Below, piece by piece: positions 19,991 to 63,389 of a stretch of 64,000 nt of DNA. Made by a program: the position numbers and the translations under genes. Source of the DNA: Marsupella aquatica. Its lineage: Eukaryota; Plantae; Marchantiophyta. Within the stretch, counting starts at the first letter, position 1, and each line of letters opens with the position of its first letter. The stretch covers positions 12,874,828-12,938,827 of the forward strand of contig OZ316894.1 of NCBI GenBank assembly GCA_973895155.1, given 5' to 3'. The notes below the pieces were generated by a model that was not told the DNA's origin, did not search any database, and saw only the letters and a program-made list of their open reading frames with translations.

Positions 19991-20790
19991 CCGCTGCCAT
20001 CCCGGTCGGCACCCTTGTCGTCGACGGTCAACCAGTCAGTGCGGCACGGCCAGTAGTTAGAAGGTAGTTAGTCAGTAGGTAGTATCCCGGAAGGTAGTAT
20101 CCTCCGGTTCTCATCCGCAAACTGTAGTATTTAGGCTTCCCCTTCTGCTATGGAAGGGGGAGAAGGCTTAGTTATCTCAGCAGAAGAAAGGTGAGGCACG
20201 GGGAGTCCCGGCCTGAGCAGGGTCAGAGCGCACCAAGGAGTGAGAGCCAGAGTCGAGCTTGCTGGGCAAGTGTGAGGCGGGGCCTCGTAGAGACTGGGCA
20301 TCGACTGCCGTTGGGCCTGCTGACCCCCTTTGAAGTCGAGTCAACCATGTAAACTGATGCTTCGCTGAGTAAACGTAGTCTTTTCCCTCTAATGTTTCCG
20401 CAAGTAACTGGTGTTGTGAGTATGCTTTGTCTGGGCAAAGGCACCATTTTAAGGGACGTACCGGGTGCGGACTAATGGTAGGGATTGCCACCCATTGTAT
20501 GTCACAAGGTTCTCTCGCGTCGATGGCTTGAAAAGCCCCAAGCCGGGAGTTAGTCCGAGTCACTGAGGGAGGATTCCAGCGGTGGAAAATAAAAGATACC
20601 TATGACTAGTACGAATTGCTTAAGTGTTATACTAGTAAGTATATCGGCTTAGCCCGACTTAGGGCTAATCGGGGCCACTACACACCTCCTTGCTCGAACC
20701 CTCACCCCTACTAGTGGTCGAGGTCGCGCCATGGCACTAAACTGGATTTAAGGCCCAGGTTAGAAACGCGACATACGACGACCGGTTTTT

Positions 20791-20807
20791 TGGCGCTAGA
20801 TGGAGGG
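20791..20807 (+). promoter_or_regulatory. Primer-binding site, probably tRNA-Asn
   Basis: TGGCGCTAGATGGAGGG closely complements the 3' end of plant tRNA-Asn(GTT) (...CCTCCTTCTAGCG-CCA, recalled), and lies ~80 bp upstream of the gag ATG. Confidence 0.65.
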
Positions 20808-20887
20808 GGCACTCATTTTGCCTTACGAGTGGAGCCGTGTAGTGAGCTAATAACCTTTGATTTTGTACTCGACGTGTAGGAAGGGGC

Positions 20888-24956: not shown

Positions 24957-25314
24957 GAGGAGCTCAAGCTGCTTCCAACGCTGCTATCCACGCAGCAAAT
25001 GGTTGAAAAGAGAAATTGGGAGAGGAGGCGCAAGCTTGCAAAAACTATGGAGGAGGGCCAAATCAGAAGTACATAGCCAATTCAAGATAGAAATAAAGTT
25101 GCGAGTTAGGGTTCAGTAGTTAGAGATAGTGGCGGCTCTATTAGGGCTGGGATGGGGCTCCAGCAGCGTAGCATCCACCCATTTGGGCTCAATGTGAGAG
25201 TATATAGAGCAGCCCCTCGGTAGAGGCAAAGGGGGGGGGACTTTAGTTGTGTCATCTCATGTAGACTGAGGAGTAGGGAGGAGCTCTGAACTCTATCCTA
25301 AACCTAATCCGCCG

Positions 25315-42300: not shown

Positions 42301-45300
42301 TGATCCTCCTGGTGTTTATGCTAAGGACATGGTGAAGAGAAAGACAATCATTTAACACGGTAGCAAATTAAGATCACTCTTCTAAGGCCCATCTATATGC
42401 AAGACGGCTCTTAGTGACCTGTGTGAAATGGTAACCGGGTCCGCTTGAGGCTGCAGGCCCACACGGCGCCTTCCTGATGTTTCCTGAGGGGATTTAGAGC
42501 TCTTCAAATCTGCTTGTGCTCTGACCCGTTAGTTCATTGACGCTCCTGAAATTGAGCTCCTTCCATGGAGTAGTGCTTTCCATCGTACTACTGATCAGAA
42601 GGGGGCCCCTTGGATACTTGTGCGTTTCACTCTGTAATTTTGTATTTGCATGGTCGTGTTCAGTTTACAACGTATCGTAGGGCCTCAGTAGATTAGGAGG
42701 TCCTTAAGTTGCAGGTCTGGGGGTATGAGCAGTATCTGGATAGTAGCAGCAAATTTTTAGGTCCCATGAAAGGGAAATGGAGAAACATAGAAGTGGGAAA
42801 ACTAGCCAACTGCGATAGAAGGGAAGATAATGCAACAAAAGGGTGTAATTCACAGCATAACAGTTTGGGGGTCTTCCTAGACAACCTTTATGATTAATGC
42901 CGTTTCAGTCTAGAAGGTGTGAACCCAACAGAAGAGTCTTTTAATGAGAGTTCTCTATTTCGACGTGCTTATCTTGAAACAGGCATGGTTGTCCGTTTAA
43001 GATGTCTTGGATTTGATCTCCCTGTAGCACGTGCTCCTGTTAGAATCAGTATTTGAGGTCAATTCTTTCATTTGCGTTTCTCCTGCAAAACTTTCTACAG
43101 CATCTCGACTTATGCTACAACTGACACATCTCAGATCAACACCTACAGGAGTTCAGGGCTAATCAATCACTTCCGAAGGCAAAGTTTTGCGTCCATGAAC
43201 TACCTATTTCGGGAACTCCTGGTAGCCTGCAATCCTACGTTGACCTACCTAGAAGCTGCTAGCTCCTTAAAGTGTTAGAGTTAAGTACTGAACCTTTGTG
43301 GCAATTTGTCTTATTTGGGAATCATCCAAATTCAGCTGTTACGATAGCACTATGTTGGGAGGAGTACTCAAAACAGAGAGGGAAAGTCTTTGCAAGAAGA
43401 CATCCTGCTAGAGGCATCCTTTCTGATGCAAGTTTTCCCCTTTAAAGGTAAGAGCTATTACCATAATCTGCCTGGAATTATGCAACTTGCAATATGATGT
43501 GGGGACACATCTCAAAGATACGTCAGAGCACCGGGTATGAAGAATACTTGCTCTTGCATGGAGCACCTTCTTTATGACCGCTGGCGGCAAAGTCAGATTT
43601 AGACTGATAGACAGGCAGTACATATTAAATTTGGCATATTTTGGGAAGAAGACGATACAAGGGAGGACTTCCGACACACCCGCCTGAGAGTGCATCAGAC
43701 ACTACGAAGAGCAGAAGAACAGCAAGGTCCCCTTTGATGGCATCTGATTTGTAAAACTGGACAAATCATAATTTGTCAAAAGGAGGTATTCCTCTCTACT
43801 TGTCTGCTGACATAATACTCCGCTCGCGTTGAAATGGAGCTGAGGTTCTCTCACACGCAAAGCTGCATCCAAAAGCACACATTCAAGCAAGACTCTGAAA
43901 CTGGGGCCGCCCCACCAGTTTTGTGTTAGTCTTAGTCCTAGTCTTAGCCCTTGGCTTAGCTTTGGGTTCAAAAGGCAATGTTGGAATCTCACCTGTAATA
44001 CGTTTTAATGTTGGCCTCTTGCCCTTCGGGTTGCGACGCCCCAGGTTTCGTCATCAGACTTTCACCCCACATCCTTCTCGGATTAATTTGGACTCTTCCA
44101 CTGGGCCCTGCGGCTCTTGAGAGATTTCTTTCACACCTCCGGGCCCCACAACGGGCTCCACTGCCATGGCTTTTCAATTCTTGCTAATTTTCGATAAATC
44201 TCAAGAGGAGCCTTTTTCTTGTCCCCTAATCGTGTTTGGAATTGATTCTATACTAGATAAAGCAAGTTTTTTCTTGTCTGGTGTGTTTGGAGTCGAGTCC
44301 ATACTCACCTGCTCTCATGCTTTCATTGTTACAGCCTGGTTGCAACCTTCCGTTATTTTCCAACCAAATTTGTGCTTGCTCTGATGCATTCACTGCCAAG
44401 TCACAACAGAGTCGCAAACTTTGGGTAGTACTCGCTCTCATGGGTTCACTACCTAGTCACAACCTGGTTGCAACCGTTCTCAGGTTCACCAACCAAAGTT
44501 TTTCAAATCTTAACGTAGAAGGTTGGACAGCCTAGGGAGCCAACAGAAGTCGTCGGTGAGTGATTGTGTCGATTACGTCTTCAACTAGCCAACCCTTTTG
44601 CTTTCCTATCTATGCTTTGGCGCTTTTGAGGATATTTATTTAGATGGTTGTTGAACTGATGCTGGTTTGGTTGACGAGTGTGCTTCAGACGACGTACCAT
44701 TCTTGAAAATCGGGATGATGGAAGGTTTGTAGCATGCTCCAACTGAAGTTTGTACCCAAAATCTCACGCTAGAGTGTTGGTCTAGGCAATACCTGGGTTC
44801 CAAAGACGGGTCCAGGTTCAGCTGGTGTAGGGCACCAGTCCAGGACCGGCTTCCACTGCTGCAATCTTCCATGGTCCACATTTGGAGATGGTTGGAACCT
44901 ACCATGGTCCATATTTGGAGGTCCGTTGGAGTCTAGTCTATACCATTATTATCAGGCTGGCTAGGGGATTGTCCTTTATGCGAGTAAGCTTTACATAGTG
45001 ATTTTTGGTCTCGGGCAGATCTACTATCAAAGCTGGGTGTGAGGTCAAATACCTCTTTTGGAACCCACAAAATGCACCAATCTAGCATTAGCTACTACAA
45101 GTCCTGCTTTTGCAGACTGATTGGCCCTTGACTGATCAATTGTGCAAGTCTTGTTCCATTTGGCATCTCAAAGTTGGTGCTATCAACTTTATTGACAACT
45201 CAGAAAGATCGCATGAACATATATTAAAGTACCATCTCAAATTTCTACCCCCCATTTCCCAAGATTTTTGCAGCTAAATTCATAAAGTAGTCCATGCCAA

Positions 45301-48300
45301 CCCTACTAGGCCAGATAGACAATCTTGTGTTTTGCAGTCTATCTCAGTTCAAAGACAGAGAATATTCATTGCTTGAATGATCACCGGGTCCCAATGTGTA
45401 CAGAATGAGATTGGAGATAAGGGAGACCTTGATTAGCTCAGGTAGATAGGCAATGTCATCACTGTAATCTGATAGATTTTAAGCACTGCGACTTGTTTAC
45501 TTTTGTAAAGTATGTCATGATCCAGAGCCACTCCAGTGGATGCCCTCACTCCGCCATCCACCTCGTCATACCCGAGTGGCTCATCCAGAATAAAGAGCTC
45601 TCAGACCATCTTTGAGCATTGTCGTATCCAAAGCCGTCCAGACCACATCGATTAGAAATTTTGGGCTAAACATAAGTTCGACCGCTGCTAGAAATGGAGT
45701 TTTGGTTAATGATGGAGGACCGGTGTGTTGATCTACACCAAACTCGATGGAAAAATACAATGACAAGTGAAAGAAAGGATGGCAGGGGTTTAGGGTTTAG
45801 GGTTTAGAATTCGATGTAGACAATGTCCAAAGCCCCACAGTGGCAATCGACTCCACACTCCAGAAAAGCAGATAGAGATCATACAACAGCACCGTCAATC
45901 TCGTCGACAGCGTCAACCGTTGCACATTCTCAGAAATTGGAGCCCAGGTGAGAACCTCAGAAAAAATGAGCCAACGTGACCCAAGGAGGGCACTGATGAG
46001 ATCACAGATGTCGCCGCCAAGGTCTGACACTATACTTCCTGATTTTAATCAGCTTGGATCACAGAGGAGAAATATGGATATGGTAGAGAACCGATGAATC
46101 CATGTCATCCGTAAGCTGATTCTGTTCAAGAAAATGGAGAGCCTTTTACCATCTACGGTAGAAATATCTCACCTTGCACTAGAGCATCACATGGCCGAGG
46201 CAAAGGGCAAATGCTGGTAACCTTAGTTGAGCAGATTTTACATCTCCATGGACAATTTCCCAAGGTTGTCATTTTGAGAACCACAAACTTTGGCTTTTCA
46301 AATCATTTCTCAATTCTCACTGGCAAAACCATAAGGAAAATATTGAAGCAAGGCTAAACAGGCGAACTGACTTTGGAAGTCCCCAAACATCGGCTACAAG
46401 CCGACTTCTACGAAGTACTGTCACTTACACATAAACGATTCTAGTCTCTTGATCTCTCTGCCAAAACTGCCTATGGATTGTGACGTTGCTTTCAACTTTG
46501 AAAGCTTCTGTACAATCCGGGTCCCATGGTCCATGTGGGTCCCGTCGGACTGTAAAACATTTCATTCATTCACCCTCTCTAGATTGACTTGATGGAATTC
46601 AAACTGCTGCTGTCCGTACTCTTGTAAAAAGAGTCTAGTGGTTACATTCCTATCAAGTACATTTTTCTCCACCAATGTCTCGCTGGACTGTTGAATCCTC
46701 TCTCTCAAGCTGTGCATCGGTAGATGGAGTCCTCTACCCCAGGCCGGGGGCTCTAATTTTACCGTGTGCACAGATAAGGGTGTGCTCTTTGTGTCCCACC
46801 TTGTGCTGGTTGGTTCGAAGAGAGCGCACGTCATCTCCTCACCCCTAACAAGGTTGATTGCTTAAATTGAGAAAGGGGATAAATGGATGTTGCCGTCAGG
46901 TGCTTGACCTTAAATACCAGTCATGCATTCCTTTATATCGATAGGCATAGCTCTGTCCCACCAACAATCGTGTAGATTTTATAAGCCAAGTTAATAATTT
47001 TCTGGATGATTGATTTCTGTTTTAAGGGCTGAATTCAAAAAGTACATTTCAAATATGTTTGAGCCGATACAGACTGACGTATTAGAGATCATCTTCTGTT
47101 ACACCACTGAGACGTTCAGGAGATATCGTTAGGGAACCAAATGAAAAGAAAACATGTGGAACACAATGTAGCGATGGCCCATTTGGATGTAACCAAATAT
47201 CCTTAAAAAACGATTGTCACAGGAAACGAGTATGAAGTGTATGAAATAGCAACTCTTGGTGTGCTTTAAAGCAAGGCCTCGTCCTTGATTAAGAATGTTG
47301 TTGCGGATGACGCTCGTCTGCTTGCTGCATAGCGTGCCTCGTCATTAAACACTTCGATGAGAGGTCATTAACTCATGGGAGTGACTTTTGTCAATGGGCA
47401 GTCTTTTATGTTGAGAATTTGTGGATGCGGTGGGGTATGACAGAAAGCTGATGGAATGGCAGGAGTCAGCCATGTGATAGTTGATGAAGTTCATGAGCGT
47501 GACGTAGACACTGACTTCCTACTGGTGGTGATTCGTGAACTCCTTAGTCACCATCCCTCATTGCGAGTTGTAGTTATGAGTGCAAGCCTAGATGCTACTA
47601 TGTTCACAAGGTACGTGGGTCGTTTTTCAGTTAACTGAATACTGAGTAATGATGCTCTGATTCCCTACATTGCAAATTAATAATCACCTCCATTGGTGAT
47701 TATTTTGGCTGATCATATGCTCTTATGTTTCTGTTTTGAATGTCAAATGCTCGACTTTCAGGTATTTTGGAGGCTGCGCTTTGGTCAACATCCCAGGAAT
47801 GACACACCCTGTAGAAACTTTCTATCTGGAGGATCTTCCACAGCTCATGGGTCACCAGAGTATTCCTGCATCAAGGCTGGGGTTGGCACGATTTGGGATG
47901 TTGGATGAAGAAGATGTTGACTGTGAGCTTGTTGCATCTGTAGTTGCTTGGGTAGCCCAGTATTATGCACAAGGAGATGGGGCAATCCTTTGCTTCCTAC
48001 CGGTAAGCTCCAAAATGCGAATGCTACCCGGACCCATTAGGAAGTTATTGGTTTTTATTTCATTGGGAATCTTAAGAACCATTATGCAGCTTCTCGTGTA
48101 GATGAGTCAATTGGTGTGGATCTTGTTTGCGGCCTGCTAGGAATGTGAACAGGTCCTGATCCTGATCCTGTTCTTGTGCCGTGTAACTTCTTTGTCAGGG
48201 GTGGGACACAATTGCAATGGTGCGAGAGAGACTTCTGAAGATGCCCTGGAGCAGGGACCTGATGTTGGTTCCCCTGCACTCTCAGCTCCCAGCTGGGGAG

Positions 48301-50385
48301 CAACGTGCTGCTTTCGCTCAACCACCTATTGGTGTTCGCAAGGTGTATTTGACTTGGGGTTGCGTTCCCTTCTTTCTTGGTTTAGACGATTAAGTCATTG
48401 ATATTAACATGACTGTTGATTCTGTGGCAGGTTGTGCTGGCCACGAATATTGCAGAGACTAGTGTGACAATTGATGATGTAGTTTATGTCGTTGACTGTG
48501 GGAAAATCAAAGAGAAACAATTTGATGCATCACGGAATATGACTACAATGCGCGTCCAAGTATGCACTTTCAATTGCCGCAGTGATTTACTTCTAGGTTC
48601 AGGGCAGTTCTTTCTGCAATCTTGTGCAAAGGGTCTCAATACAATTAACTTTAAGAGGTTATGTTGATTTTACTCTGAGCATGTTAAACAATTGCAGTGG
48701 ACTTCACAAGCAAGTGCTCTGCAACGACAGGGTCGGGCAGGTCGTGTTCAACCCGGTTTTTGTTTTCGCCTCTACACTTGTGCCGTAAGTTGTTTCTATG
48801 AAGGTTTTCTGCATGTTTTGGATCAAATTTACATGAAAGCGTTCGAGCCGAATGTCCTGTCACTTTGTGATTTGTTCTACAGGTGACTTCTTTTCGTTCT
48901 TTGATAAGAAATCTCAATGCAGACACATCAAGCAATGCTGGAACATCAGATTCCGGAGATGCAGCGAGTGCCACTTGAGGAGCTTTGCCTGCAAATCAAA
49001 GCAATAGCAACACCGAGTTTGGTAATTATTCTTTCTCTTTCGTGCCATCTTTGTTAATGACAATCTAAATCTTTCGGAAAATGTTTTTGGGAATTTATTC
49101 ACCCGAAGTATCCTAAAGCTAGGATTGAGATGGACAATTGAATGGTAGGGAATGTACCTTTAGACTATTTTGATCGTTGCATTTACCTTACAATTGGCAC
49201 TCTCGGCATGGTGTGGAGCAGGTTACTAGTGCTGTTTCAGTGACAAGCTGTGATCTCTTGTATAAAACTAAGGATAAAGAATATAGGTATGTCAGTACAG
49301 GTATGAGTGACATTGCTACTTTCCTATCAAAAGCTATGCAGCCCCCCAAAGGTGCTGCAGTTCATGCTGCCATTAAAGTACTGCAACAACTAGGTGCCAT
49401 TGATGAACTCCAAAATTTGACGAATCTCGGCAAAACGCTGGCAAAGCTGACTGTTCATCCTCGGTTTGGAAAGATGTTGGTTTTTGGGGCACTGTTGGGT
49501 TGCCTAGACCCTTTGCTGACTATTGCAGCTGCTGCGTGCTTTCGGGATCCATTTGTTGCTCCTGTGGCAAGGAGAGAGGAAGCTGATAGAATTCGGGAGA
49601 GCTTCGCTGTGGGCCCTGCTTATGGAAGTGATCAACTTGTGGTAGTTGTGGCCTTCGAGCAATGGTTGGCAGCTCATTCGGTTGGGCAAGGATCCTCGTT
49701 TTGTGAAGCAAATTTTCTTGCTCCTATGACTATGAGGCTCATAGCAGGTATGCGGAAGCAGTTTGAGAGAACTTTGGCTGAAGCGGGTCTTTTTGAACCA
49801 TGGGTAACGATTACCAATGCTGCTGTGGGTGCACATGTGGCAAGATCACTGCTGACAGCTGGACTCTATCCTAATATTGCACGCTCGGAATTGTGCCGGG
49901 AGTCTAAAGGTACGAAGAATGGTACCAAACATGCTTACCGGTGGCGCTTGGGATTCCGAGTTCACAATGGGCGGGTTTTTATCCACCCCACGTCCGTTGT
50001 TTGTGAGAAACAGCTAAACCCAAACTTTCAGTACTATGTAGTCTTTCAAGAGAAAATGCAGACTAGTCAGGTTTTTGTGAGGGGATGTACTCTCCTTCCC
50101 ACCTTGGCAGTGGTCCTCTTAGGTTGGAACGTACATGTGTGCCAAGATACTGGGCCATCTGTATTGAATGGTGACTGGATACTTTTGGAGGTGGAAGGGT
50201 GGCTAAAGTTCCACATTGATAGGAGAGCTGGCCTACTGTTACTGCAGCTCCGGCATGCATTTGACGCAGTTTTGGCTCGTTGGGTAAGTGGTAGTACCCG
50301 TACAGAAGCAGAGCGTTGTGTTGTGGAATGCGTTGTGGCCCTACTACATGCAACTTGTCATGACATGCTTGTCGGCTCCATTTGA
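36396..50385 (+). CDS. DEAH/RHA-family RNA helicase with two N-terminal dsRNA-binding domains (DHX9/DHX30-like)
   Basis: Exons 36396-36626, 37815-37904, 38081-38251, 38598-38819, 39412-39810, 40235-40329, 40903-41044, 47444-47610, 47762-48002, 48199-48342, 48431-48559, 48698-48784, 48923-49021 and ~49222-50385. Motifs: [56 protein letters not shown]2 and OB-fold (FIHPTSV). dsRBD ends [14 protein letters not shown] and [13 protein letters not shown]. Confidence 0.9.
41200..46560 (-). mobile_element. Highly degraded L1-like LINE in the 6.4-kb helicase intron (41045-47443)
   Basis: Only faint minus-strand traces: AAGP near 44110 (cf. KAPGPDG), KGCL near 43415 (cf. RQGCPL), a KGG-like stretch near 42605 and a Cys/Trp-rich end near 41900, in L1 ORF2 order. 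Boundaries are approximate. Confidence 0.45.
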
Positions 50386-52617
50386 TATCTCCTAGCGATA
50401 AGTTTTTGCGAATTGACTCAGTTTTTAATGGAACCTTAGAGAGAGACAAATGCAGTTGTACATGGTGTACTATTGTAGATACCGGCACATTGCCAAAGAT
50501 TTGATGCGATAGTTTTGTCAAAACCTCTTAAATAATCTTGTTGTTCACCTGGTTCCCTGATGAAATGTGCTGTATTCATGGATCTGCCAAAAGAAGTTGT
50601 GCAGCAGTCCAACAATTTGGAGTGGCCACGAGGCTGAAGCAGGAACGCGTGTCTTCTTTGTGCTGATAGTTTAGTGAAGTCAATTTTGTTTAGAATCTGG
50701 GAAGTGCGTATTACACTACATAGACTCGCCTATGTATGTGAAGACGTTATCAGCACAAAGATATGGCAGGTAATTAACAATGAGTGCATATAATGCAGTT
50801 TATCGGTATGTTGATGGATACGCTCCAAATCAGGAATATAACGAGATGTATTCCACTATGTGGCAGACGTTCATTCTCTTATACGGTCCAAAATCGATAT
50901 CTTTGATCATTACGGTGTGGAGCTTGAAGGCTAGACTACGGCATGTGGCTCAGCTGGAATTGATCGTGTACCACTGAGTCAGGTTGGATATATACTGAAG
51001 AACTTAAAAGCAGAAGGAAGGTTAGAGCGGGGAAAACATAGTGTCATCCATTTTCCCCGCATACGCACTGCTAAAACTCGAATTTTAAGAGCATGAGTAG
51101 GAAAACAATGAATGTAAGCTTCGTTGTAGGCATTTTGTGCTGTGGATCTGAGAGTCAGCAAGGATATGACCATTGCAAGTTAAAAGAGACCCTTCGAGGA
51201 GAGTGACTACAAATGCGTAAGAGATAGTAACTTGAGATAGGATACGAGTGGAAAGTTAGATCAGAGGGCTCTCTTGAAGAGTATACAGATAAGTGAGACA
51301 CCATGTCTCGTCCTGAAAAGGAAAGTCAACAGTCTGCTGAGCTACTCAGTCCAATCTCAGACAAGGAAAATGCTCTGATCCTTTCCAAGATGTTCTGTCA
51401 TCCAAGAGGACCCTGTATTAGTCACGAGTCAAAATCTGCAAATCCTGACGGCGAATACTTTCTACAGACCTCTTCAGAAAGAAATGTTCCCAGCTCTGAA
51501 GAGAATCGCAAGTTTGCTTAGTCTCAAATGAGGTCACGGAAGCTAAGTTTAGGAGTGGGTTCCTAAGCTCTTTTGTTAAATTTCTGAGTTGTAGGTGTTG
51601 AGACTCCCAGTTTCCATCACAACCCTTCACTTATGAAGTTTTTCAAAGCTGTAGTAATCCCAGCATTGGCTACTCGATAGAGTGGACATCATTGTCATGA
51701 CCTTTTTTACGGGCCCTCACAGTCCTACTTGTGGCTTGGATTGCAAAGTGGTTTCAGAGAGTTTGAGCCGTGGAAGAATTTTCTTGCACCATTCTGGCTT
51801 GAAGAACAACCCATAAGATAACTAAGATTGTACCATTTGAATGCTGCTTCGATAGTAAACGAATGAGGGTATGACTACCATGTGAGGAAACAGGAAAAAA
51901 TTTGCTCGTAACAGTAATTTTTTGCTGTTACGAGTAAAAAAATTCCTTGTAATGGGTGATTTTTTCATCATACCAAGGTTTGGACTTCTTGGCCGCTAGT
52001 AACAGCAAGCCTTGCTAGCAAAAACCCATCCAACAGTCTGTTCGTATTTTAATGACTAATGTTTCTTTAAGAAACCTTTCGAGTGAAGTAACTTTTTTTA
52101 AAAACAATTCGGACAATCCAAAATAGATATAAAGATCACCACCGAAGCACTTGGCAAGCAGTTTTACTTGCAATTTAAATGATGGGCCTGGAGATTGGGA
52201 GTCATCAGTATCTCAGATAAACATACAAAATTGGCACCATAACCAACTTACAAGGTTGACAGTGATTTCAGGGAGACTTGCCAACTGTAAAAAAAAGCCA
52301 AGTCTGTAAGCCATGATATTCGACCTTATCAGGGTATGTGACTGTGTCACTGAAAGTTTTCTTAGTGAGTACCAAACCAGGGTCCAAAACATCAACCTAC
52401 AAACATTTTCAAAAATATAGCTAGCGACCTCGCTAGCAAAACCAATCAACCAATGTCTGGTGTTTTATAAATAAATTAAAGGGCACTTCATATGGAGTGT
52501 AAATATCATCTCTCCCTACCAACACACAAAAACGTCTACTCCCAACAGTACTTACATATATATTAAAAACCAATGAAAACCTTATTAAAACCAAACCTCA
52601 CTCTAAGGTGGACAATA

Positions 52618-55600
52618 TCAAGCCTCAACTCCCCTTTGGATCAGATCGGAAACTTCAGCGACAGTTAAAATAGGCTGCTTGACTACATCCGAAGTCTCTA
52701 GGTTCAAATGGTAAACATTCTTGTAAACCCAAAGAATATGTTTGCAAGACATGTAAGGCTTTCCATGTGAATGCCGCTTATAGAAATCCTCACAGGAGCA
52801 ACATGGGAAGACGCACAACTGAATCCAATATTTACTAGATTTACTAGGGTTGTTTTCATGCGTCGCAATCAAAAACTGTCTTCCCCATCCGTTTCCTTGG
52901 ATGATCTTTTCACAAGCCACAATCCTCATTTGCTCTTCATTTGCAGACCGAATCCTTTTAACAAGTTCTGCAGTGAAGTTGAAACGTTGACGAGCACCCT
53001 TCCCATTTCGTGTCCTCAGTCGTCTATTCAAATAGTTTACATCAAACTTTTCTGGAAAAGAGTTAACGTCAATTTGAAGTTCCACGCGACCTGGAGGAGC
53101 AACACTGCCATCTGGTTTGCCATCTGGTTCGCAATCCATGTAATATAGACCATCAATCTGAAAACCCAAGCCAATCAAGAAGCTGATTTCAGGAGGAGTT
53201 AAGTCTGTCCCTCGAAGAACTTTTAGAGACGAGGGTACTAAAGGAAGTCGGGCAATTGACTTGCGACCCCTGGTCTTGTGGCAGACATTGTTTGGGCAGA
53301 AGTATAAGAGTTGAGGATGTGGTAAGTCATCCTCAAACCATGGATTGCAACCCCAACCACACCGCAAGACCGAGTATGATAACCTACTTCCTTGATTAAG
53401 TTTCGACACTCATCTCTTCCATAAATGGTCCGATCCATAGACCCATTGCACACTGGACCATTTCCTTTCCCGCACCGCCTTAAGTGCCAAGTACCAAATG
53501 GCACATCAACTTCATTTACCGCAGGTATTCTCCTCGGTGAAACATAAACTGGTTCCTCTGGACAAACAGGAGATACATCTCGTTGTGGCAATGGTTTAGG
53601 AATTTCCAAAGTGTCATCTCCTGAGCTCTCAGTGTCATTCCCTTCATTATCGGAAAGAAGAATCATGACGGATGGATTTGGACAACTGGAGAATGTTGAA
53701 GGATGGAGTATGCCGGAAGTTTCCTTCAACTCATCGCTCTCTTCCACAACATTGACACTCCAGAAATCAGAATATAAATTTCTTGGATTTACGCCTCTTG
53801 TCACTGCCTCCGTCTGCATCACCTTATCATGTCGATGAGAGTTTTCAGCACCAACTCTAGCCGAAGCTTGGCCTTTTTGTTTTCCAGACTTTGTGCACAG
53901 ATCTCCATGAAGTGGTTGAGTGTGATGGTAATCATATTTTGGAGATGATTCAAGCAGAAGATTGGTTGCTTTCTCAAAAGCATCAAGGGATCCTAGTGTA
54001 TCTGCATTCCTATATGCAAGTTCAAATATGGTAGGTCCATGTCCCCTGTGGCATCCTTCAATGTATGCAGCAAAGGCAGCGATCTGCCCACCAGCATGAT
54101 TTTGATCAAGCTCACAAGCTTCAAATAGTCCAATCTTCTTCTTCATTTGACAAGCTCTCATTGAACCATATACAGATTTGGCTCCAGTACAATTTGGCAT
54201 CAATGCTGACTCCTTTGCTGTTTGAGTCTGAAGTCCAGCCAAAAACAAACACAATCATTGGGAGGCACATACTTGATTTCAAGATTGCATTCATACAAGG
54301 AAAGAATGCTAGCGACATCGCTAGCCAAAAAAGATGAGTTTACTTACCAGTCTGAAGAAGTTTCCCCACTGTCGTCATCGGACAACCCACCAAGCAATCC
54401 AGCCTTGCAAAGATCTCAATTTCCTAGGGTGACAATTTCCACACTTCCACCACTCTTGAATATCGTTAGCCACCCTGTAAGCTTGAACATATGTGGCTGC
54501 ATTCCTAAATTTCTCCCACATTTGGTAATGTTTCGAGTGTTTCCCTTCACAAATTCCCTCCACAGTATGACGTCTTAGTGACTGCGAGAAATGGAATGCA
54601 TCACTATGTTCTTTCTCAGGGAGACAAACACCATCAAAGAAAACATTTCTCAGAGCGATCCATCCAGCTTCAGCATTGTCAGCCATAAAACCAGCTATGT
54701 TTACATTGGAAATACCATTCTCAGCAGCAACTTCCAACATTAAACGCCATGTAGTTTCCAGTGACTCAACATCCTTGGCTTTCAATTCACAAGTGAAGAT
54801 AGTACAAAGAGCGCGATAAGTGTGATCGTATACATGAGCACTAAAAGTTAACCAACCAGTAGTTATTCTGTGCATCACATCAAAACTCACCCAAGCTCCC
54901 ACTAAAGTTCCACCTTTTTGCATCCGATTGAGAATGTCAACTCCAGAACCGGGACCTTTGGTACTCATCTTGAATACATGAGCTCGAATGGACTTGCCAG
55001 CCTGGCCAGGGAATAGGACCCTGTAGAAATGGAAATCTCACGCGCATTTGCATGTCACGAAGCGAATCCAACTCACCTTTCTTGGGGTTCCCAATTTTAA
55101 CGCTCCGGAAAATTGCATGGAATTTTGCCGGCGAGGACACAACTTTCATCGAGTTCCACAATTCCACCTCCTCTTCTTTTGAAAGATCATGACATGCCTC
55201 AGGATGGAGAAGAGATATCAATGTACCTATTGAAATATTCTTCACACGAGAAGGGGTTGCCAAGGGATGAGCTAACTGAATGCCTTGAATAACATCTTCC
55301 GCTTTTTTTTTGCAACTCGACACTTCCCCGTTCGGATCGGATGATCATGAACAATATGCACTGCGAGTCTAGACATGTGTTTTGAGTCATGAGAGTCCAA
55401 AGTTGGCTTTGCATAAACATAAAACATCATTGCTGGACAAGGCCTGACACAATAAGGTCTCTCATCACAAAAGCCACAAACCAAACCTCATTCCAAAACC
55501 AGGTTTCCCGGCTGGAAGACATCGGTCATTAGTGATCTTCCAGGAAATGTCGCTTCATTCCTCATTCCTGACTCCTTGAACCTTGAACAATTCAAATTTT

Positions 55601-56378
55601 GACACTGCACAACACCACTGCAACGGACCTTGAAAACAGACCAGTGATTACGTGGCTTCAGGTTAGCCGAAGTAGTGACCAATCGGGTCCAAGGGTAGCC
55701 ATCATTGTCGCGGTCCATGTCGAGAAGCCCTTGATCGCGACCAAATCTTGACTCCACCGGAGGAAGCTCATATACCATGTCTCCATTGTAACTTGTCGGA
55801 AGACGATCAACTTGGACATCAACCCACGAGACATCTCTTCTAAATCTTGCCAGCTCACTTGCCCCATTAATGCTCAAAAACGCTTCAAGGGCACCAATTC
55901 TGTAGACTTTCTGAAAAAGATGGCATCCCGAAGCACTTGGAAGAGGAGTATCTACTTTCAATTCTGTAGAACAACTTCCAAAAGCAGAATTAGTACCCTC
56001 AAGAGTGGTAAACCCACAACCAAAGGCCTGGACATTCGTTCCTCTCCCCGGGGGAGAGTCCAGGTCTACAAGCACTTTTCCCCGAGGATTCTGAAAAGGC
56101 TCTGGAAAATCATCTTTGCCTGACAAAACCTCAACCACGTCTCCGGAAGCAACCTCCCAAACTCTTGCACCATGTAGAGTTCTTGAAATAAATTCATCCT
56201 TCCTTGATCCATGAAGTGAAACAAGAAAGAACAACCTCAAAATGAAATCACAGTTATTGAGCCCAAATCTTGTCAAAAGAAAGGCCTCGGTCACATTAGT
56301 GATCTTTCTCATAGATGAAACTTCAAGAGTAACAATGTCTCCAGTGCTCCGACGCCAGAAGATGATGCTCGGAGCCAT
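52618..56378 (-). pseudogene. Mutator-like DDE transposase with N-terminal GCM-like Zn domain and C-terminal SWIM finger; frameshifts and stops
   Basis: GCM-like: DGYPW...CSGVVQCQNLNC...CGFC...PCP...HDHP. Catalytic core: WVSFDVMH, GFMADNA, AFHF, with the expected E position reading GAKS. SWIM: CSCEDF...CKHILWVY. Intron ~54347-54231. Confidence 0.8.
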
Positions 56379-57777
56379 CAAATGAGGACCAAGACAAGGA
56401 TCCAAACACAAACATCATGGATGAATATATAGAATAACATTACCTAGGACAATAAAGTTTAGAATAAAAAGGACGTCCATTTTAACATTGCATATACGAC
56501 AAAACTTCAACGGCTCTAATACCTTCAAGAAATGAATTATTGCTAGCGATATTGCTGGCCTAAATTTGCTATCATAAAGAGGTCCTTATCATCCAAAGTT
56601 ATATCTGGTAATCTTCCAAAAATTGCCTATAATGTGGACAACAAGGATAGCTTGGGTTGTAGTAGGATGTTTACTGAACTTGAAGTGTACTTGGGGTATA
56701 CTATAAGGATTATTGAACTTGGAGCTTTGTGTTAAACAACAGTTTTTACTAGCAACCACGCTAGACATAATTTAGGTAACTTTTCTGTGTTTAAGGTAGA
56801 CTCTAATCTTCAACCATCTATATTTTAGTGATACTAAAATATGATTTCCACTCACAAATTGACATTAACAGAGTAGAGGATTCTAAGATGTCCCATAAAC
56901 TAAACCTCTGAGAAACCCTGAATTAGGCCAGCGATATCGCTAGCCTGAAGCACCAGAAATTTAGGGTAGACTATTATTTGGGTTTGGGGTTCAATTGAGG
57001 GATATAGAAACAAATATATGGGCTATTTGTATAGTTTACACATGAAACATTGGGCTATTAGTATAGTTGAAGTCTAGTTTGTTGACTGTTTGAAGAAGTT
57101 AGGAAAGAATTTAGGAGAGAATTAAGGGTTCATTTGAAATAACCCCACCTCACTTTTAACCTACCCCATTAGCAGTGATTTGGCCAGCGATGTCGCTGGC
57201 AAAAAACTGTCTAAATACTTGTCTCAAACAAAGTATGGAGTTTGTCCATTTTGGCCTCAACAAGACCCATAATCAGTCATCTAATGTCAAAATTATATTA
57301 CCGTTGGAAGGGTTAACTTCATTTTGAAGAGTAAATTTTATAAAAACTTTGGTTCATACTTCCATCGGCATATTTTGTTACTTTGGAGAATGGTTAGTTT
57401 CGACGGACACCCAACCCAAGTTGGTCAACTATAGAGTAATTGACTCCAACCGTTGGAGTCAAATGTACATTTCATCCGACCGAGTTGTCAGTAAGTAGTA
57501 ATTAGACTCCTTGTTAACATTAACTGATGCTTTGTTAACGTTAATTAGCACCGCTGGGATTAACATTTGTATAGCTCTCATTGACAGATCTTTGGCATGA
57601 AGGTGTTAAATACTGATATTCCCTGTCAATGTCAGATACACCGTAGATTGGGTTGCTTTGGATTTCCCCTGAAATCTTGCTTTGGATTCCTAACACATGT
57701 GACTTTGGATTCCTTTGCAAATAACTATACCAATTCCTTGCATTCCCTTCACGTGGTTCTCCTCTCTTTATCAGTCA

Positions 57778-60700
57778 ATGGCAACTTTTGCATCCCCTGA
57801 GTCTATTTCGTCTGTTGCCTCACAATCAGCTGCCTCTCAACGTCGAGAGACCAGGAGTTCTACGAGCCACAAAGCACTTGCTTTGGGGCTGAAGACTCCA
57901 AGGAGGCGAAAGCTTGTTGATCCAATGGATATTGTGCCGCCTTCGATGGATTTTGCCAAGTCAAAGCCTTTCTCAGTTGTCATTAACTGGCACCTTTACC
58001 AGTTTGGGCTGGACAAATTTGGGTATCCTCTTGTTCCCCCCCGAATTCCATTGTGTCGCATGCAGAACATGCAGCTTGTAAGGTCTCTTCAGACAGATTC
58101 GAATGCAATCGAGACTTTGAAGAATGAGTTCCGGGCTCAAGGGTACATTGAGGACGCGCCTCATTTTTATGTGCAAATGACAAATGAGAATGGGGACGTG
58201 CAGTTTCTGAATGACACAATTAGACAGAGCTGGGATCCAATGTGGTTGGCGCAGAATGAAGCTTTCGAGAGGGAGTGTGATTTGCATCCTGATTTTGCTG
58301 TGCTCAAGGATAAAATGTTTTGTGTATTTGATGGCAATCACCGTCTCTATTCGTGGAACCTACTTGCTGCTGAGAATCCTCACGATGTCAAAATATCATC
58401 CTCGAGTTGTCTCAAAGATATTCAAAGGAGAGAAATATACTTTCGTGCAGATTGAATCTGCGATGCGTGCTCTCAACCGGTGAGAAGATCTTTGACACAT
58501 TTGATGTTTTTGCTTCATTTTTGAGCATGATCTGTTCTTGCTATTTGCTGAATTCTATCCTGAATGGCAGGTTGACACAATGCCATATCAAAAATTTGTG
58601 GGTGCTCAAAGCTGATCGGGTCCATAAGATTTTGCGCACGGACCTCTCAGTTTACAAAGATTTAATTGATCCAGAGAATTTCAAGTTATTTCAGCAGAAG
58701 ATGCAAAATGTGAAGAAGCCATCGTGGTATTCGAAGCATATGACCTTAGATGCATGCATTTATATTCTTTCAGCTGCAAACATAGCTTTGCAAACTGCTG
58801 ACTTACTCAAGAAGTTTGCACTGAAGGAGGAACTTAGTGAACCTTTGTCCAAAGCTACAAAGGATATTGCAATTCGAGATATGATGAAGGAGCAACTCTC
58901 TGACTGGAATGTCAAAGTTCCAAAGTTTTCCCCGCTTCTGAATCCAGACTTTGGGGATTTCTTCAAGAAATGTGTTGAGATGCACAATTATTGTGAGAAA
59001 GAAAGGAAGGAAGCTCAGTGGACGGATGATAAGGGGAGAGGGAATGTTTTGTGTGGCCTTGATCGTGCAAGGCTTTTCACCGGGGTAACTTCTCTGAGTC
59101 CACAACTCCGTTGCACTCTTCTCGAAGCACAGTGCAGACCAGAGTTGCGTAAACAATATTTCCACCCATCTCAATTTTTGGATAGTGAGACCAAGCTCTG
59201 GTTGCATTGATGGGCAACCTGGGAACAGGTAGATTCCATTGCAAGGTGCTTATTAAGTGAAGCAATCTCTGAGATTATTCTCACTGTCCCTGAATGTAGA
59301 ATTCTTTCTTCCCCAGAGAATAGTCAGGCATCCCTCCTTGTTGAAATTGATGATGAGTTTGAGGATTTCCTGCAGCGGGTTAAGGTAAGGTTCTTTAAGA
59401 GCATCTGGAACCCGAAAGTTGGGGAAAAGATTGACATTGCTGCTTTTCGACAAAGGGCAAAAAGGTATGTTTACAGGTTTTTTGTTGATCGGGAGGTGGA
59501 AAATAGATCTTTTTGGTGGTGTTATCCGGCATGTTTCTCTCAATGGGCACAATATGCAAGAGATGATTCCGGTTGTGAGAAGTTTGGGGAGTACTCGATG
59601 TACCCTATTGAGGACATTGAACCCTTGCGGAAGATAAGTGAATGGGAGGTGCTGCATTGTCCCTGGTATTTAGATTTGGGGAATTGGTCACTAACATTTG
59701 ATGTGACAAAGAAAGTTGCGCTTCAAATTAAAGATCAAGTGGCTTGGTCCCATAAGTTTTTATTAGTGAATCTAAATTGTGCAACCCGGAAGTAGAAATT
59801 GCTGGCTATGTGTCGATGGAGCAGGCATGCCTCGGGGTGGCACCGACTGTTGATAGGAGCCGCCCTCGGAAATTGAAGAGGGATGTTGCCAAGGAGGTAT
59901 CAAAAGACGGCTCTATGCTTTCTGGAAAGAAAAGTAAGTATACTCTTATCTCTCCAAAGCTTACTTCTATTATCTCTCCCAAGCTGCTATTCTCATTAAG
60001 TTCATGACATATCCTTAGGCTCTTGGGTTGCTTTTTGTATCCAGAAAGGAGGGAGTCTTCGGGTTCCAAGAGTGTTCAGACTGTGACTAATGGTCGTCAA
60101 GAGGATCTTGTTGAGCCTGAGTCACCCGACTTTGAAATTGTGACTAAACCGGGAGGTGATAAGTTAGGGTCCCAAAGGCTGAAGAAGAAGAGAAAGGTTC
60201 AAGTGTTGTCAGATTCTGATGAGGAAGAAATTTCAATCCGAGAGGGTGTCACAAGGCTCTGTGGACTCCAGTTGGATGGAAGAAGACATTTCCTTGCAAA
60301 GAGTAATCTTAGTTTGACGGTTGACTCGATAAGTATGAAGAAGGTTTGACCTTCTTGGATGGGGGAGGGGGATCAATGGCTTTCGGAGATTTCAAGTTCT
60401 TCCAAACACCCGAATCCCTTAAAAATCAAGGGGAAGCCTTACACTGGGACCGGTGCCCATCTGGGGTTCATAGCGCTTCCGACTGGGCTGAGGCCTTGTG
60501 TTACTGATGTGGAAGTCCCCCAATGGAATGTCTGGGTTGAGAAGCTCCCTTACTATTTCTTTGGAGTGATGAGGCCCATGTTGTCTGATGATGGTTATGT
60601 GGCCGTTCTCCACAGTGGAGAATTTAACCACACAAAGCAAATTTTTGCTGCTGTTGAACAGAGGAACAAATTTAAACACCTTCGGAAGTACCATGTTTTA

Positions 60701-61363
60701 TTGGGGTCCCCAATGTGGATGCCAGACATGAACATTGAGGTGAGATTTGAGTGAAATTTTCAGGATTTAGTGTGTTGTTTTGACAGCGACCTCGCTGGCC
60801 TTCCTGGATTCATTAATTGATGTTTTTTTGTTCCTTTCCAGGTTTGCAACTTAAGCCTTGATGTCTTTTGTCGAGTTGAATTCAATGGGAAGATCCCAAA
60901 AGACCCAAAGTATGTCCCTCTGGCAACGTCTGAAGATGCATCACATAAGACGATGTTGAGTCTTTGTTATCCGAAAAGGGATACCAGGGCAGAGTTAGCT
61001 TTTTCCGGTCCTTGTCGGTTGTCTGTTGGATTCATGCAGGCTGTTATGGAGCTTCTCACAAAGCCTAGAGACATTGTGCTTGATTGGAATATTGGAGACG
61101 GTAGTTCATTTTCAGCTGGAGAACTCTCTGGGAGGTTCATTGTTGGGGTCGAGGATAGGGATGTTCTCCATGGTGCTGCAGAGAAGGCATTGAAGAGTGT
61201 TCTTGAGAGACACAAGAAAATTGAAGACCTTACTGAAACATTGGAGGAGTTCGATTCAGATGATGAATTTTCTCTTGCAGGATCAAAGAGTGGAAAAAAC
61301 AAAGATGGAGCTCCTAATGTTCCTGATGCAAAAGATGGCAATGATGAATTTGACCTGGAGTAA
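57778..61363 (+). pseudogene. ParB/Srx-like N-terminal domain fused to a C-terminal beta-class N4C/N6A DNA methyltransferase-like domain; 4 exons, disrupted
   Basis: Exons 57778-58479, 58571-59933, 60045-60739 and 60842-61363 (GT-AG). FCVFDGNHRL is the ParB GxxR motif. LGFIALPTG, MLSDDGYVAV and ELLTKPRDIVLDWNIGDGSSFSAGELSGRFIVGVE follow the IV...VI...X-I-II order of beta MTases. Frameshifts near 58390, 59460 and 59780; stops at 59208 and 60347. Confidence 0.72.
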
Positions 61364-63389
61364 TGTACTGATCCTCTCGCTTATACCAGATCCCTATGCT
61401 TTAATCAATTGGCTGGTGAAGCTTTCTATTGTCTTTTGATTGGATATTTCATTCATAGTCCTCTGATTGTTTTCCTGATTTCAGAGATACTCGTGTCGAC
61501 TGGTTTTCTGAAGAGAGATTTTGGCTTTGAAGGAAGATTGAAGAATCTTGCATTGTTTCTCCTCAGAAGACGTTTACTCTGCCTTGCTATGCAGAGAAGT
61601 CGGCAATTCAGTCGGATAATGCTTTTGTAGTCACCTGGGAAGGCAAAGGTCGTAGGTCACATCGTGGCGCCAGACGAAATTTATATTGCTTGCCTTTTGT
61701 TGACGATGAGGCATGCCTTGTTAAGCAATATGTTGATGAGTCTGCTGAGTCAACTGATCGGGATTTCAGCAGTGACCAGAGCAACACTAGTAGTAGGAAT
61801 GATATAGAGTCGGATGAAAGTCATTCAAGTGACTTCTGATTTTCTGAGGGAATAGAAGGATATCCCTGCACTGTTTACTCAAACTTACTGTCAGTTTTGA
61901 CAAAGTATTGGAGGCAGTACTTTTTTTGGAAATATGACCTTGAAACGGGTTTGAAATCTGAGTTCATTCATTCACTATGCCTTTTCATATCCCCCTGGTG
62001 TTTTACTAGCTTGTGTATATTCATATGGTTTGTAGTGATTGAAGGCTAGCGACCTCGCTAGACATAAAACTGAATGATCCCATTCTAGAAAAAAGATTCA
62101 TTTCTGTTGTAGAAATCTCACTATCCTCCCAATCTGCCACTCTGACCATTAGTTTTACCTTGCTAGCAAACATTAACCTTGCTGTCAATTTCTCCTGTTT
62201 CCTCACACCATACAAACCCCCAACGAATGAGAAGTTCAACATTGTTGGACAACTCTTCCAAGTTTGTGTATGACATATTTTGGGAGTGAGTGTACCGTCA
62301 CCACTCTGGACAGTGGCTCATGAAGTCTGCAGTCATTCTGAAATCAGTCTGAAAGCCCCCGGACACAATAATGTAATTATCAAGCTGAAGTTATTTTGCA
62401 CCCAATTACTTATGACTGAAAGATGAGAGGTCCTCCATGCAATCTTGTTTGATGAGGCCAAAAGGTATTTGTCTTGTGGACACACAGCCATAGGCCGCCA
62501 CTCATGTCTTTTGCACGCCATGCAGTCAAAACACATTGGATGTAATTGCATGTACACAAACCACATAGGAGTTTACAACTTCCAAGGGATGAAAGTCCAT
62601 GAGATATATGGTCATCCAACAAGGGGTAAATGGATGGCACCAACGGAGGATAGGGGCACACACCCTAACCCTAAACTATTGATGCTTGGGCAAATCAATT
62701 TGAAATGCAATAAAGATGCTCAGAATGCCAAGGAAGTGTTATGGACAGATGCGAAGGAGCTCTAGCCATCTACCCGGGGCTACTGGACAAGACAAAACAG
62801 ATGCATATTGTCTTCGTTGCATGAAAACAGAGCGGACCATATTAAGACTCCGGAGTTAAACAAACCTGCCAGGTGGATCCACATAGATTTGTAAACAAAC
62901 CTTGTTGTAGAAACTCTCTTCCAGTCATATACTTTGTGTAGTCTAAGTGCCTAGATTCATTACAAAGCAATAGTACAGCTGTCCATTAATGTGTCTTGAC
63001 AGGTGAAGTGCCCAATAAAGGCAACTCCCATTTCATTGTGTTGAATGTATGTGGCAATGTCGTCTCAAATTTCAACCTCCCCACTAATTGTAAAGCAGTC
63101 CATACAAATCTAGCACTTGGTCAATTAGTAATTATTGCAAAAACTGGGGGGTAGGTTATTTACCTGATAGATAGTATAGCACTAGGCCAATTTGTAATTA
63201 TTGCAGAAATTTGGGGGTAGGTTATTCGCTGATAGAAAGTATGCTCAATTTGGTCGATTCAGTTGGTTAACATTAGGAAGAGAGAGAGAACAGGAAAATG
63301 TTGTAATGGACAAATATCTCATATACCAGATGCAAACTGCTACAACTACAGCTGGGAAAGATACATAGCATCATATAAATGTGGACACA

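What the first reader, a model, noticed from the sequence alone, without database searches (positions are those of the whole stretch)
52420..62062. parS-like 18-bp palindromes confined to non-coding parts of the element
Seen: GCTAGCGACCTCGCTAGC (52420), GCTAGCGACATCGCTAGC (54308, transposase intron), GCTAGCGATATTGCTGGC (56542), GCCAGCGATATCGCTAGC (56927), GCCAGCGATGTCGCTGGC (57183), GACAGCGACCTCGCTGGC (60782, cargo-gene intron) and GCTAGCGACCTCGCTAGA (62045). The arms are conserved, the 2-bp centre varies, and most CpGs survive in AT-rich surroundings. I saw none outside the element. Inference: binding sites for a dimeric element-encoded protein, comparable to parS for ParB or to VANC target motifs enriched in non-coding parts of VANDAL elements. 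Placement in short introns suggests selection for spacing along the element.
Basis: partly seen in the sequence, partly recalled or inferred. Interest (0 to 1): 0.82.

Follow-up and report, generated by a model that had tools for sequence, protein, structure and literature searches.

The report
Plant transposon's private protein-docking palindromes
A broken 10-kb jumping gene in a land plant carries seven copies of its own 18-base palindrome, all outside coding sequence, which likely serve as landing sites for a bacterial-type DNA-clamp protein that the element is predicted to encode; this idea has already been proposed, without a test, for algal transposons.

Summary
Observation confirmed. 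Seven GCYAGCGA-NN-TCGCTRGC sites lie at the stated coordinates; shuffles give 0.07. All lie in non-coding parts of a 10,354-bp Mutator-type element (51868-62221, 10-bp target duplication). None lies in the other 53.6 kb. The element belongs to a multi-copy family. At the one site I could test across family contigs, 0 of 16 arm positions vary, against 21 of 86 other intron positions. The cargo gene is predicted to join a ParB-fold domain (GxxR kept), a weakly supported ParB-type DNA-binding domain and a methyltransferase-like domain lacking the catalytic DPPY. Two distant cargo relatives carry a different but related palindrome in a cargo intron. Best reading (0.6): family-specific docking sites for the cargo protein, like parS or KorB operators, probably helping the element stay active. 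The transposase (0.2) is the main rival. Binding is untested. Not supported or not shown: selection for even spacing, CpG survival as a sign of hypomethylation, a GCM domain by profile, and CTP as the nucleotide. The concept is in print for red and brown algae, so this is a land-plant variant with a precisely defined, testable site.

The parts
51868..62221 (.). Mutator-type DNA transposon, 10,354 bp, decayed copy of a multi-copy family
   Evidence: 10-bp target duplication; contig cover rises sharply over exactly this span in 4 of 4 runs
51858..51867 (.). left target-site duplication AACGAATGAG
62222..62231 (.). right target-site duplication AACGAATGAG
51881..51899 (+). core of the short degenerate terminal inverted repeat (left)
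   Evidence: 19 nt, 95% complementary to 62189-62207 (I19)
62189..62207 (-). core of the terminal inverted repeat (right)
52420..52437 (.). palindrome 1, 3' of the transposase gene
   Evidence: a diverged contig keeps 22 nt ending at 52441 while skipping the flank (hint only)
54308..54325 (.). palindrome 2, in transposase intron 54228-54347
56542..56559 (.). palindrome 3, between the two divergent genes (one CpG decayed)
56748..56765 (.). decayed eighth site; shares 12 nt including flank with palindrome 7
   Evidence: 4 mismatches, 11.1 bits
56927..56944 (.). palindrome 4, between the two divergent genes
57183..57200 (.). palindrome 5, between the two divergent genes
60782..60799 (.). palindrome 6, in cargo intron 60740-60841; arms invariant across family contigs
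62045..62062 (.). palindrome 7, 3' of the cargo gene
51995..52019 (.). pair of CpG-less half-site-like sequences, 9-bp spacer, near the left end
   Evidence: 3 mismatches in a variable-spacer scan
62162..62186 (.). pair of CpG-less half-site-like sequences, 9-bp spacer, near the right end
   Evidence: 3 mismatches in a variable-spacer scan
52618..56381 (-). broken transposase gene (Mutator-like DDE core, SWIM-like C-terminus; 2 stops, 3 frameshifts, K where annotated homologues have the third catalytic E)
   Evidence: 27 homologues at 46-69% identity; no Pfam MULE hit
57778..61821 (+). broken spliced cargo gene: ParB-fold domain (about 57990-58480), helical domain (58572-59750), methyltransferase-like domain (about 60450-61200); last exon 61485-61821 inferred from splice sites only

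Best explanation
The seven palindromes are family-specific sites confined to the non-coding DNA of a Mutator-type transposon, and they are likely the docking sites of the element's own cargo protein, which is predicted to carry a ParB-type nucleotide-gated clamp domain followed by a ParB-type DNA-binding domain. Mechanism (all inferred): a cargo dimer from an intact family member reads the palindrome, closes on DNA with an NTP (CTP or ATP, unknown), and spreads along the element from sites near both ends, in two introns and in the shared promoter region. This would let it act on every family copy in trans and on little else. The likely outcome is keeping the element transcribable and mobile against host silencing, as VANC does. 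The methyltransferase-like tail probably acts as a catalytically weak or dead DNA-binding or recruiting module rather than as a writer. Shown: sites, placement, family-wide conservation of one site, multi-copy family. Predicted: the folds. Inferred: binding, spreading, effect.
For: (1) 7 of 7 sites fall in the 30% of the element that is non-coding, p about 2e-4 on my gene model. (2) In cargo intron 3, family contigs from 4 runs differ at 21 positions: 0 of 16 arm positions and 21 of 86 others, one being the spacer; Fisher p 0.018, or 0.008 without splice ends. One contig spanning the stretch has 19 other letters in 171 and shows no listed arm change. (3) AlphaFold model of a liverwort homologue (pLDDT 81): ParB/Noc chains are Foldseek ranks 1-3 (best E 0.23) and the top 12 of 50 rows on re-alignment (Z 6.2-8.6; Caulobacter ParB 175 of 180 residues, rmsd 7.2, spanning both domains); KorB Z 7.4 in the wide search. 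(4) Model of the window's own helical domain (pLDDT 89): the only 4 of 50 rows that span the whole domain are Spo0J, KorB (2) and ParB-parS DNA-binding domains, Z 4.3-4.6, rmsd 3.1-4.1, 94-99 aligned. (5) Box II GxxR is present in the window (DGNHR) and in 96 of 150 hits. (6) 2 of 4 distant cargo loci (38-42% protein identity) carry a different but related palindrome in cargo intron 1, sharing an 11-mer with each other (9 of 2000 shuffles reach it) while their exons are 65% identical. (7) ParB cargo with adjacent inverted repeats in red algae, and ParB-methyltransferase cargo on an unrelated Sola transposase in Ectocarpus, are in print.
Against: No binding data. The DNA-binding-domain match is weak: Z 4.3-4.6 is tied with generic helical hairpins, Foldseek listed no ParB chain for that domain alone, and in the wide search of the two-domain model a generic helix pair ranked first (Z 8.3). 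No Pfam ParB hit in 95 members. The fuller model is of a homologue only 26-32% identical to the window's product. Conservation was tested at 1 of 7 sites, on contigs at least 80% alike, counting positions and not events; the conserved block (60776-60808) is wider than the motif. Half-site-like pairs lie near both termini, where transposases bind. A Mutator transposase alone can bind and demethylate its own family (bioRxiv 10.64898/2026.08.24.746577, section read). The other 2 of 4 distant loci show no palindrome in the 1.2-1.8 kb held. The effect after binding could be repression, as for KorB, rather than anti-silencing.
Confidence: 0.6

Rival explanations
1. The palindromes are binding sites for the transposase's own N-terminal zinc-finger-like domain, used for self-activation or for assembling the transposition complex on an element with poor terminal repeats.
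For: The terminal repeats are short and degenerate. CpG-less half-site pairs lie 127 bp from the left end and 35 bp from the right end. AtMu1c transposase alone binds, demethylates and activates its family.
Against: In that paper binding is at the terminal repeats, not at internal sites. Here the 7 good sites are 159 bp to several kb from the ends, 3 of them between the two promoters. Related palindromes sit in cargo introns of distant relatives, though those contigs are too short to show whether a transposase is linked. GCM domains bind a non-palindromic octamer as monomers (recalled).
Confidence: 0.2
2. The cargo binds the sites and its methyltransferase domain is active, writing 4mC or 6mA on the element as a self mark.
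For: PF01555 at E 0.0014 and DpnA at E 0.005; motif order IV then I, as in beta-class enzymes; D-x-P-x-G kept in 5 homologues; proposed for Ectocarpus. This is a sub-case of the best explanation, differing in the effector step.
Against: Motif IV reads ALPT in the window. The five homologues read DLPT, DMPT, DMPS, DFPI and DVPF, so only one keeps an aromatic fourth residue. Motif I is degenerate (DWNIGDG against DPFMGSG). Active Marchantia 4mC enzymes have TSPPY (passages).
Confidence: 0.15
3. The sites are bound by a host transcription or chromatin factor that the element exploits, or act as RNA hairpins in introns and UTRs.
For: 3 good sites and the decayed one lie in the bidirectional promoter region; the others are in transcribed non-coding parts.
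Against: No exact half-site in 53.6 kb of host DNA. Distant relatives use a different palindrome, which fits a co-evolving element protein better than a fixed host factor. Positions 3 and 16 vary without always keeping the pair (one C-A mismatch, one T-G among 7), and the centre is only 2 nt.
Confidence: 0.1
4. Neutral relics: remnants of a MITE or of local duplications.
For: Sites 56748 and 62045 share 12 nt including flank; the two intron copies in L055 lie in a local duplication.
Against: The flanks of the 7 sites are otherwise unlike each other; arms are invariant while the same intron drifts; CpGs are kept where neighbouring CpGs are depleted.
Confidence: 0.04

Closest known systems
Sola1-1_Ec32 accessory gene, Ectocarpus (PMC12477816; passages read)
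   Same: A ParB-like plus N4C/N6A-methyltransferase protein (1104 aa) transcribed opposite to the transposase; proposed to bind and modify its own element.
   Different: Sola rather than Mutator transposase; brown alga; no target site given in the passages seen ('palindrom' occurs 0 times in the main text; supplements not read). Sequence homology to the window's cargo was not tested.
Plavaka PAG3 and adjacent inverted-repeat arrays, Bostrychia (bioRxiv 10.1101/2025.02.11.637652; passages read; supplements closed)
   Same: A transposon-borne ParB-like protein, with inverted repeats proposed as its parS-like targets; the accessory genes move between transposon superfamilies, including Mutator in Chondrus.
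   Different: There the repeats form tandem arrays beside the gene, ParB is fused to a 2OG-oxygenase and the methylase is a separate gene. Here single palindromes are dispersed over the element, including introns, and ParB is fused to the methylase-like domain.
VANDAL/VANC, Arabidopsis (PMC5735166; passages read)
   Same: Mutator element with poor terminal repeats, an accessory gene, and family-specific motifs in introns, intergenic and terminal non-coding regions.
   Different: VANC motifs are 8-9 bp, not palindromic, often tandem, and binding and demethylation are shown. The cargo here is a predicted ParB-fold protein.
KorB/OB of plasmid RK2 (PMC11790492; passages read) and bacterial ParB/parS, Noc/NBS
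   Same: A mobile element's ParB-family clamp with a 16-bp palindromic operator acting up to more than 1 kb away; KorB is among the best structural matches for both domains.
   Different: No ParA or KorA-like partner is seen in the element; different site sequence; large insertions in both domains; eukaryotic chromatin; KorB represses.

Membership tests
Mutator (MULE) DNA transposon | 8-11 bp target-site duplication (PMC6446971) | tested here: met
   10-bp exact duplication
Mutator (MULE) DNA transposon | DDE transposase of the MULE type | tested here: inconclusive
   Conserved D53, D120 and D-x-F-H in 22 aligned sequences; E-S-V/M-H-A in 3 annotated homologues (signature recalled). No Pfam MULE hit in 22 members at E up to 10.
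Mutator (MULE) DNA transposon | terminal inverted repeats, long or degenerate | tested here: met
   short degenerate repeat with 19-nt core
Mutator (MULE) DNA transposon | SWIM and GCM-type zinc fingers | tested here: inconclusive
   C-x-C..C-x-H and C-x-G-V-V-x-C..H-D-H-P patterns seen by eye (patterns recalled); no Pfam or PDB sequence hit
ParB/parS clamp system | ParB/Srx N-terminal fold | tested here: met
   predicted model; PadC Z 7.1-7.4, rmsd 3.1; ParB 6t1f Z 7.9, rmsd 2.6 over 92 residues
ParB/parS clamp system | Box II GxxR phosphate-binding motif | tested here: met
   DGNHR in the window; R present in 96 of 150 hits (119 of 150 have the motif)
ParB/parS clamp system | central helix-turn-helix domain that reads the site | tested here: inconclusive
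   4 ParB-family DNA-binding domains are the only whole-domain matches, Z 4.3-4.6, tied with generic helices; collinear after the N-terminal domain
ParB/parS clamp system | palindromic site of about 16 bp on the same element | tested here: met
   7 copies of an 18-bp palindrome; sequence differs from chromosomal parS (recalled) and from OB
ParB/parS clamp system | ParA ATPase partner (partition function) | tested here: not met
   the element's reading frames are accounted for by the transposase and cargo genes; no P-loop ATPase in the 9 element segments scanned. It is therefore not a ParABS partition system.
ParB/parS clamp system | site binding, CTP-dependent closing and sliding | not testable with these tools
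   needs biochemistry; nucleotide preference cannot be predicted from sequence (PMC12704722)
VANDAL/VANC anti-silencing system | family-specific motifs in non-coding parts of a Mutator element | tested here: met
   7 of 7 non-coding
VANDAL/VANC anti-silencing system | short non-palindromic motifs, often in tandem arrays | tested here: not met
   single dispersed 18-bp palindromes, 256-3599 bp apart
VANDAL/VANC anti-silencing system | accessory protein homologous to VANC | not tested
   no direct comparison with VANC was run; the cargo's matches are to ParB and amino-methyltransferases
VANDAL/VANC anti-silencing system | induced loss of DNA methylation | not testable with these tools
   no methylome; CpG-retention test inconclusive
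Algal transposon ParB-methyltransferase accessory proteins | ParB-like plus N4/N6 methyltransferase-like domain, opposite strand to the transposase | tested here: met
   compared with the description
Algal transposon ParB-methyltransferase accessory proteins | common descent with the Ectocarpus or red-algal proteins | not tested
   their sequences were not fetched
Active beta-class N4C/N6A methyltransferase | catalytic (D/S/N)PP(Y/F/W) motif IV | tested here: not met
   ALPT in the window; D-x-P-(T/S/I/F) in 5 homologues
MITE | copies share flanks and have their own target duplications | tested here: not met
   similarity among sites is limited to about 18-23 nt

The most novel reading that the evidence does not exclude
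Land-plant transposons run a true bacterial-style clamp system in eukaryotic chromatin: an NTP-gated ParB dimer loads at the element's private palindromes, slides over the whole 10 kb and shields or marks it, with site and protein co-evolving family by family. The fungal Starship cargo family DUF3723, the top language-model neighbour of this protein, would be the same kind of clamp, making this a self-recognition module shared across kingdoms.
Probability: 0.3. Interest if true: 0.88.

Novelty: new variant of a known kind. Interest (0 to 1): 0.6.

Why it matters
Transposons that recognise and protect their own sequence are proven only for Arabidopsis VANDAL/VANC, according to the Bostrychia paper, and, in a 2026 preprint, for Spm and AtMu1 proteins. 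ParB-type cargo has been proposed to do this in algae, but the passages I saw give no defined site or test. Here the candidate site is defined to the base, one copy is shown to be conserved across the family, and distant relatives show a variant site. That makes a direct binding and sliding experiment possible. If true, a prokaryotic chromosome-segregation clamp has been reused by plant transposons as a sequence-specific chromatin tool, which could also serve for targeted epigenome editing.

Tried and rejected
No genome is held, so the genome-wide motif count and copy-by-copy alignment could not be run. Homodimer prediction for the cargo's first 400 residues: no verdict, alignment not used. 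Sequencing runs: no RNA holder listed. The motif in viral contigs: 54 loci with one site each, about what chance gives (my rough estimate) and none clustered. Relatives of the cargo or transposase in viral contigs and GTDB genomes: none. Word-indexed search for longer homologues of the ParB exon: none, although one search then found 216. Profile search of alignment A1 against PDB sequences: 0 hits. Foldseek with the helical domain alone: no ParB chain among the rows listed. Pfam gave no ParB, MULE, SWIM, GCM or DUF3723 hit; weak hits to DUF1015 and DndB in 4 of 95 members each (both ParB-fold fusions or relatives). Alignment A2 misplaced 5 helical-only rows and was not used for folding. A 5-bp duplication (ACCAT) just outside the repeat core was rejected as the target duplication in favour of the 10-bp one further out. 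CpG-decay test: 5 premature TGA against 22 CGA gives P 0.026 for at most 1 loss in 14, but at least one of those stops aligns to W in homologues, so the rate is an upper bound and the test is inconclusive. Even-spacing idea rejected. Literature searches without a land-plant report: DUF3723 with ParB, 0 papers; 0 papers; the library is incomplete, and Iyer et al. 2011, cited by PMC12477816 for green-algal elements, was not read.
Full report
The observation. The consensus GCYAGCGA-NN-TCGCTRGC matches 4 sites exactly and 3 with one mismatch. Nothing else in 64 kb matches at up to three mismatches, and shuffles give 0.07 on average. A weight matrix separates the seven (26-31 bits) from a decayed eighth site at 56748 (11 bits) and from the best site outside the element (9 bits). 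Even exact 8-bp half-sites occur only inside: 11 against 0.

The element. A perfect 10-bp duplication flanks 51868-62221. Inside it lies a short degenerate terminal repeat with a 19-nt core. Contigs of four public runs cover exactly this span far more deeply than the flanks, at 80-100% identity. The tool warns that this depth is no copy number, so I take it only as proof of a multi-copy, diverged family. The minus strand holds a broken transposase (56381 to 52618) with 27 homologues at 46-69% identity; the named ones come from the liverwort Calypogeia. Conserved acidic residues, a D-x-F-H motif, a SWIM-like tail and the duplication length point to Mutator, although Pfam gives no MULE, SWIM or GCM hit. 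The intron at 54228-54347 is at the same place in homologues. The plus strand holds a spliced cargo gene from 57778, head to head with the transposase. It has 216 relatives at E up to 0.001; of the 10 I looked up, 7 are named, from Riccia and Adiantum. Full-length relatives reach about 1200 aa and align with all three parts of the window's gene.

Placement and selection. On my gene model 30% of the element is non-coding and 7 of 7 sites fall there (p about 2e-4): one behind each gene, one in the transposase intron, one in cargo intron 3, and three between the promoters. I could test conservation at one site. Family contigs laid on 60705-60875 differ from the window at 21 intron positions: none of the 16 arm positions, one of the two spacer positions and 20 others; Fisher p 0.018, or 0.008 without the splice ends. 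The atypical A at arm position 2 of this site shows no listed difference, so it appears to be shared by the family rather than a private decay. Caveats: only contigs at least 80% alike are laid, differences near contig ends are not listed, positions are counted rather than events, and the conserved block is somewhat wider than the motif. In the wider lay, several joints of diverged contigs land beside sites (52441 to 52618, 54237 to 54303, 56532 to 56927, 56962 to 57173). This suggests the motif outlasts its flanks, but some sides are short and I count it as a hint. The spacing claim fails: gaps run from 256 to 3599 bp and 3 of 5 introns have no site. CpG retention (13 of 14, against o/e 0.28 nearby) fits selection on the motif; it does not show hypomethylation.

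Distant relatives. One metagenome scan gave 4 short loci with the cargo's first exon at 38-42% identity. Two carry a GC-rich palindrome in cargo intron 1: two copies in L055 (arms ATCTCGGC and GCCGAGAT) and one in L057 (TCGGAGA-GGG-TCGCCGA). They share an 11-mer that 9 of 2000 shuffles reach, while their exons are 65% identical. The inner right arm TCGC matches the window's, but the outer arms and spacer differ. The other two loci show nothing comparable in the DNA held. This is the pattern expected of a site co-evolving with an element-encoded reader. The contigs are too short to show the linked transposase.

The candidate binder. A model of residues 150-690 of the Riccia homologue (pLDDT 81) gives ParB and Noc as Foldseek ranks 1-3 at weak E-values (0.23-0.46). 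On re-alignment of Foldseek's 312 matches, the top 12 rows are all ParB-family (Z 6.2-8.6), several spanning both the nucleotide domain and the DNA-binding domain. In the unbiased wide search KorB (Z 7.4) and PadC (Z 7.1) appear among generic helical matches. The window's own helical domain folds confidently (pLDDT 89). Its only whole-domain matches among 50 rows are Spo0J, KorB twice and a ParB-parS complex, at low Z of 4.3-4.6; Foldseek lists no ParB chain for it. Box II GxxR is kept. So the ParB fold is well supported, the helix-turn-helix is plausible, and the nucleotide is unknown. The C-terminal domain resembles beta-class amino-methyltransferases, but motif IV reads ALPT here and D-x-P-(T/S/I/F) in five homologues, so I doubt catalysis.

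Mechanism and rivals. I commit to the cargo as reader (0.6): load at the palindromes, spread, and keep family copies active in trans. Binding, spreading and the direction of the effect are inferred. KorB shows that such a clamp can also repress from more than 1 kb away. The transposase is the main rival (0.2): an Arabidopsis Mutator transposase activates its family by itself, though at the terminal repeats, and CpG-less half-site pairs lie near both ends here. An active self-methylating cargo (0.15) is a sub-case of the best reading. A host factor or RNA hairpin (0.1) and neutral relics (0.04) fit worse.

Comparison and novelty. It works like parS or OB in design and like VANC targets in placement. 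It is neither a ParABS partition system (no ParA) nor a VANC system (other motif type, other fold). A ParB-methyltransferase accessory gene is described in an Ectocarpus Sola element, and ParB cargo with neighbouring inverted-repeat arrays in red-algal Plavaka elements, both with the self-binding proposal and no test in the passages seen. My searches found no land-plant report, within an incomplete library. Earlier unreviewed notes of this scan describe similar elements in the same genome, 32 of 43 fitting my look-up. They led me to the Ectocarpus paper and lowered my novelty rating; I did not check their sequences and do not count them as support. What is new here is the dispersed, intron-including layout in a land-plant Mutator, the family-wide conservation test, the variant site in distant relatives, and the lead to DUF3723 (feature score 0.97, 195 of 256 shared; a conserved Starship cargo gene; no alignment supports the link yet). 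Verdict: real feature, new variant of a proposed kind, interest 0.6.

Papers seen: PMC12477816, 10.1101/2025.02.11.637652, PMC5735166, PMC6446971, PMC12704722, PMC11790492, PMC4738411, 10.1101/2021.12.13.472469 and 10.1101/2021.02.12.428880 as passages; 10.64898/2026.08.24.746577 as abstract and one section. No supplements were read; those of the two algal papers may hold repeat sequences that bear on novelty.

Noticed in passing
cargo family, P0153 residues 150-520 (window about 57990-59200): The nearest language-model clusters are fungal DUF3723 proteins (score 0.97), a conserved accessory gene of Starship elements. With those skipped, a ParB_N cluster appears at 0.89. DUF3723 may be a ParB-type protein; a search for both terms found 0 papers.
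   Followed up: partly
L055:839-1069 and L057:697-803: A different palindrome (core CTCGGC..GCCGAG, shared 11-mer) in cargo intron 1 of two distant relatives.
   Followed up: partly
window 51892-51947: A 26-nt-arm inverted repeat (77% complementary) directly inside the left terminal repeat, absent from the right end.
   Followed up: no
window 51995-52019 and 62162-62186: Half-site-like pairs without CpG and with a 9-bp spacer near both ends; possible transposase sites or decayed palindromes.
   Followed up: partly
window about 17000-26400: GC-rich (about 53%) stretch with retrotransposon gag, zinc-knuckle and aspartyl-protease-like matches: an LTR retroelement.
   Followed up: no
window about 39400-50385: Spliced host gene ending in DExH-helicase HA2 and OB domains, 1.5 kb left of the element; a P-loop ORF at 39412-39849 may belong to it.
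   Followed up: no
window 63111-63226: Two 50-nt direct repeats, 88% alike, 66 bp apart, right of the element.
   Followed up: no
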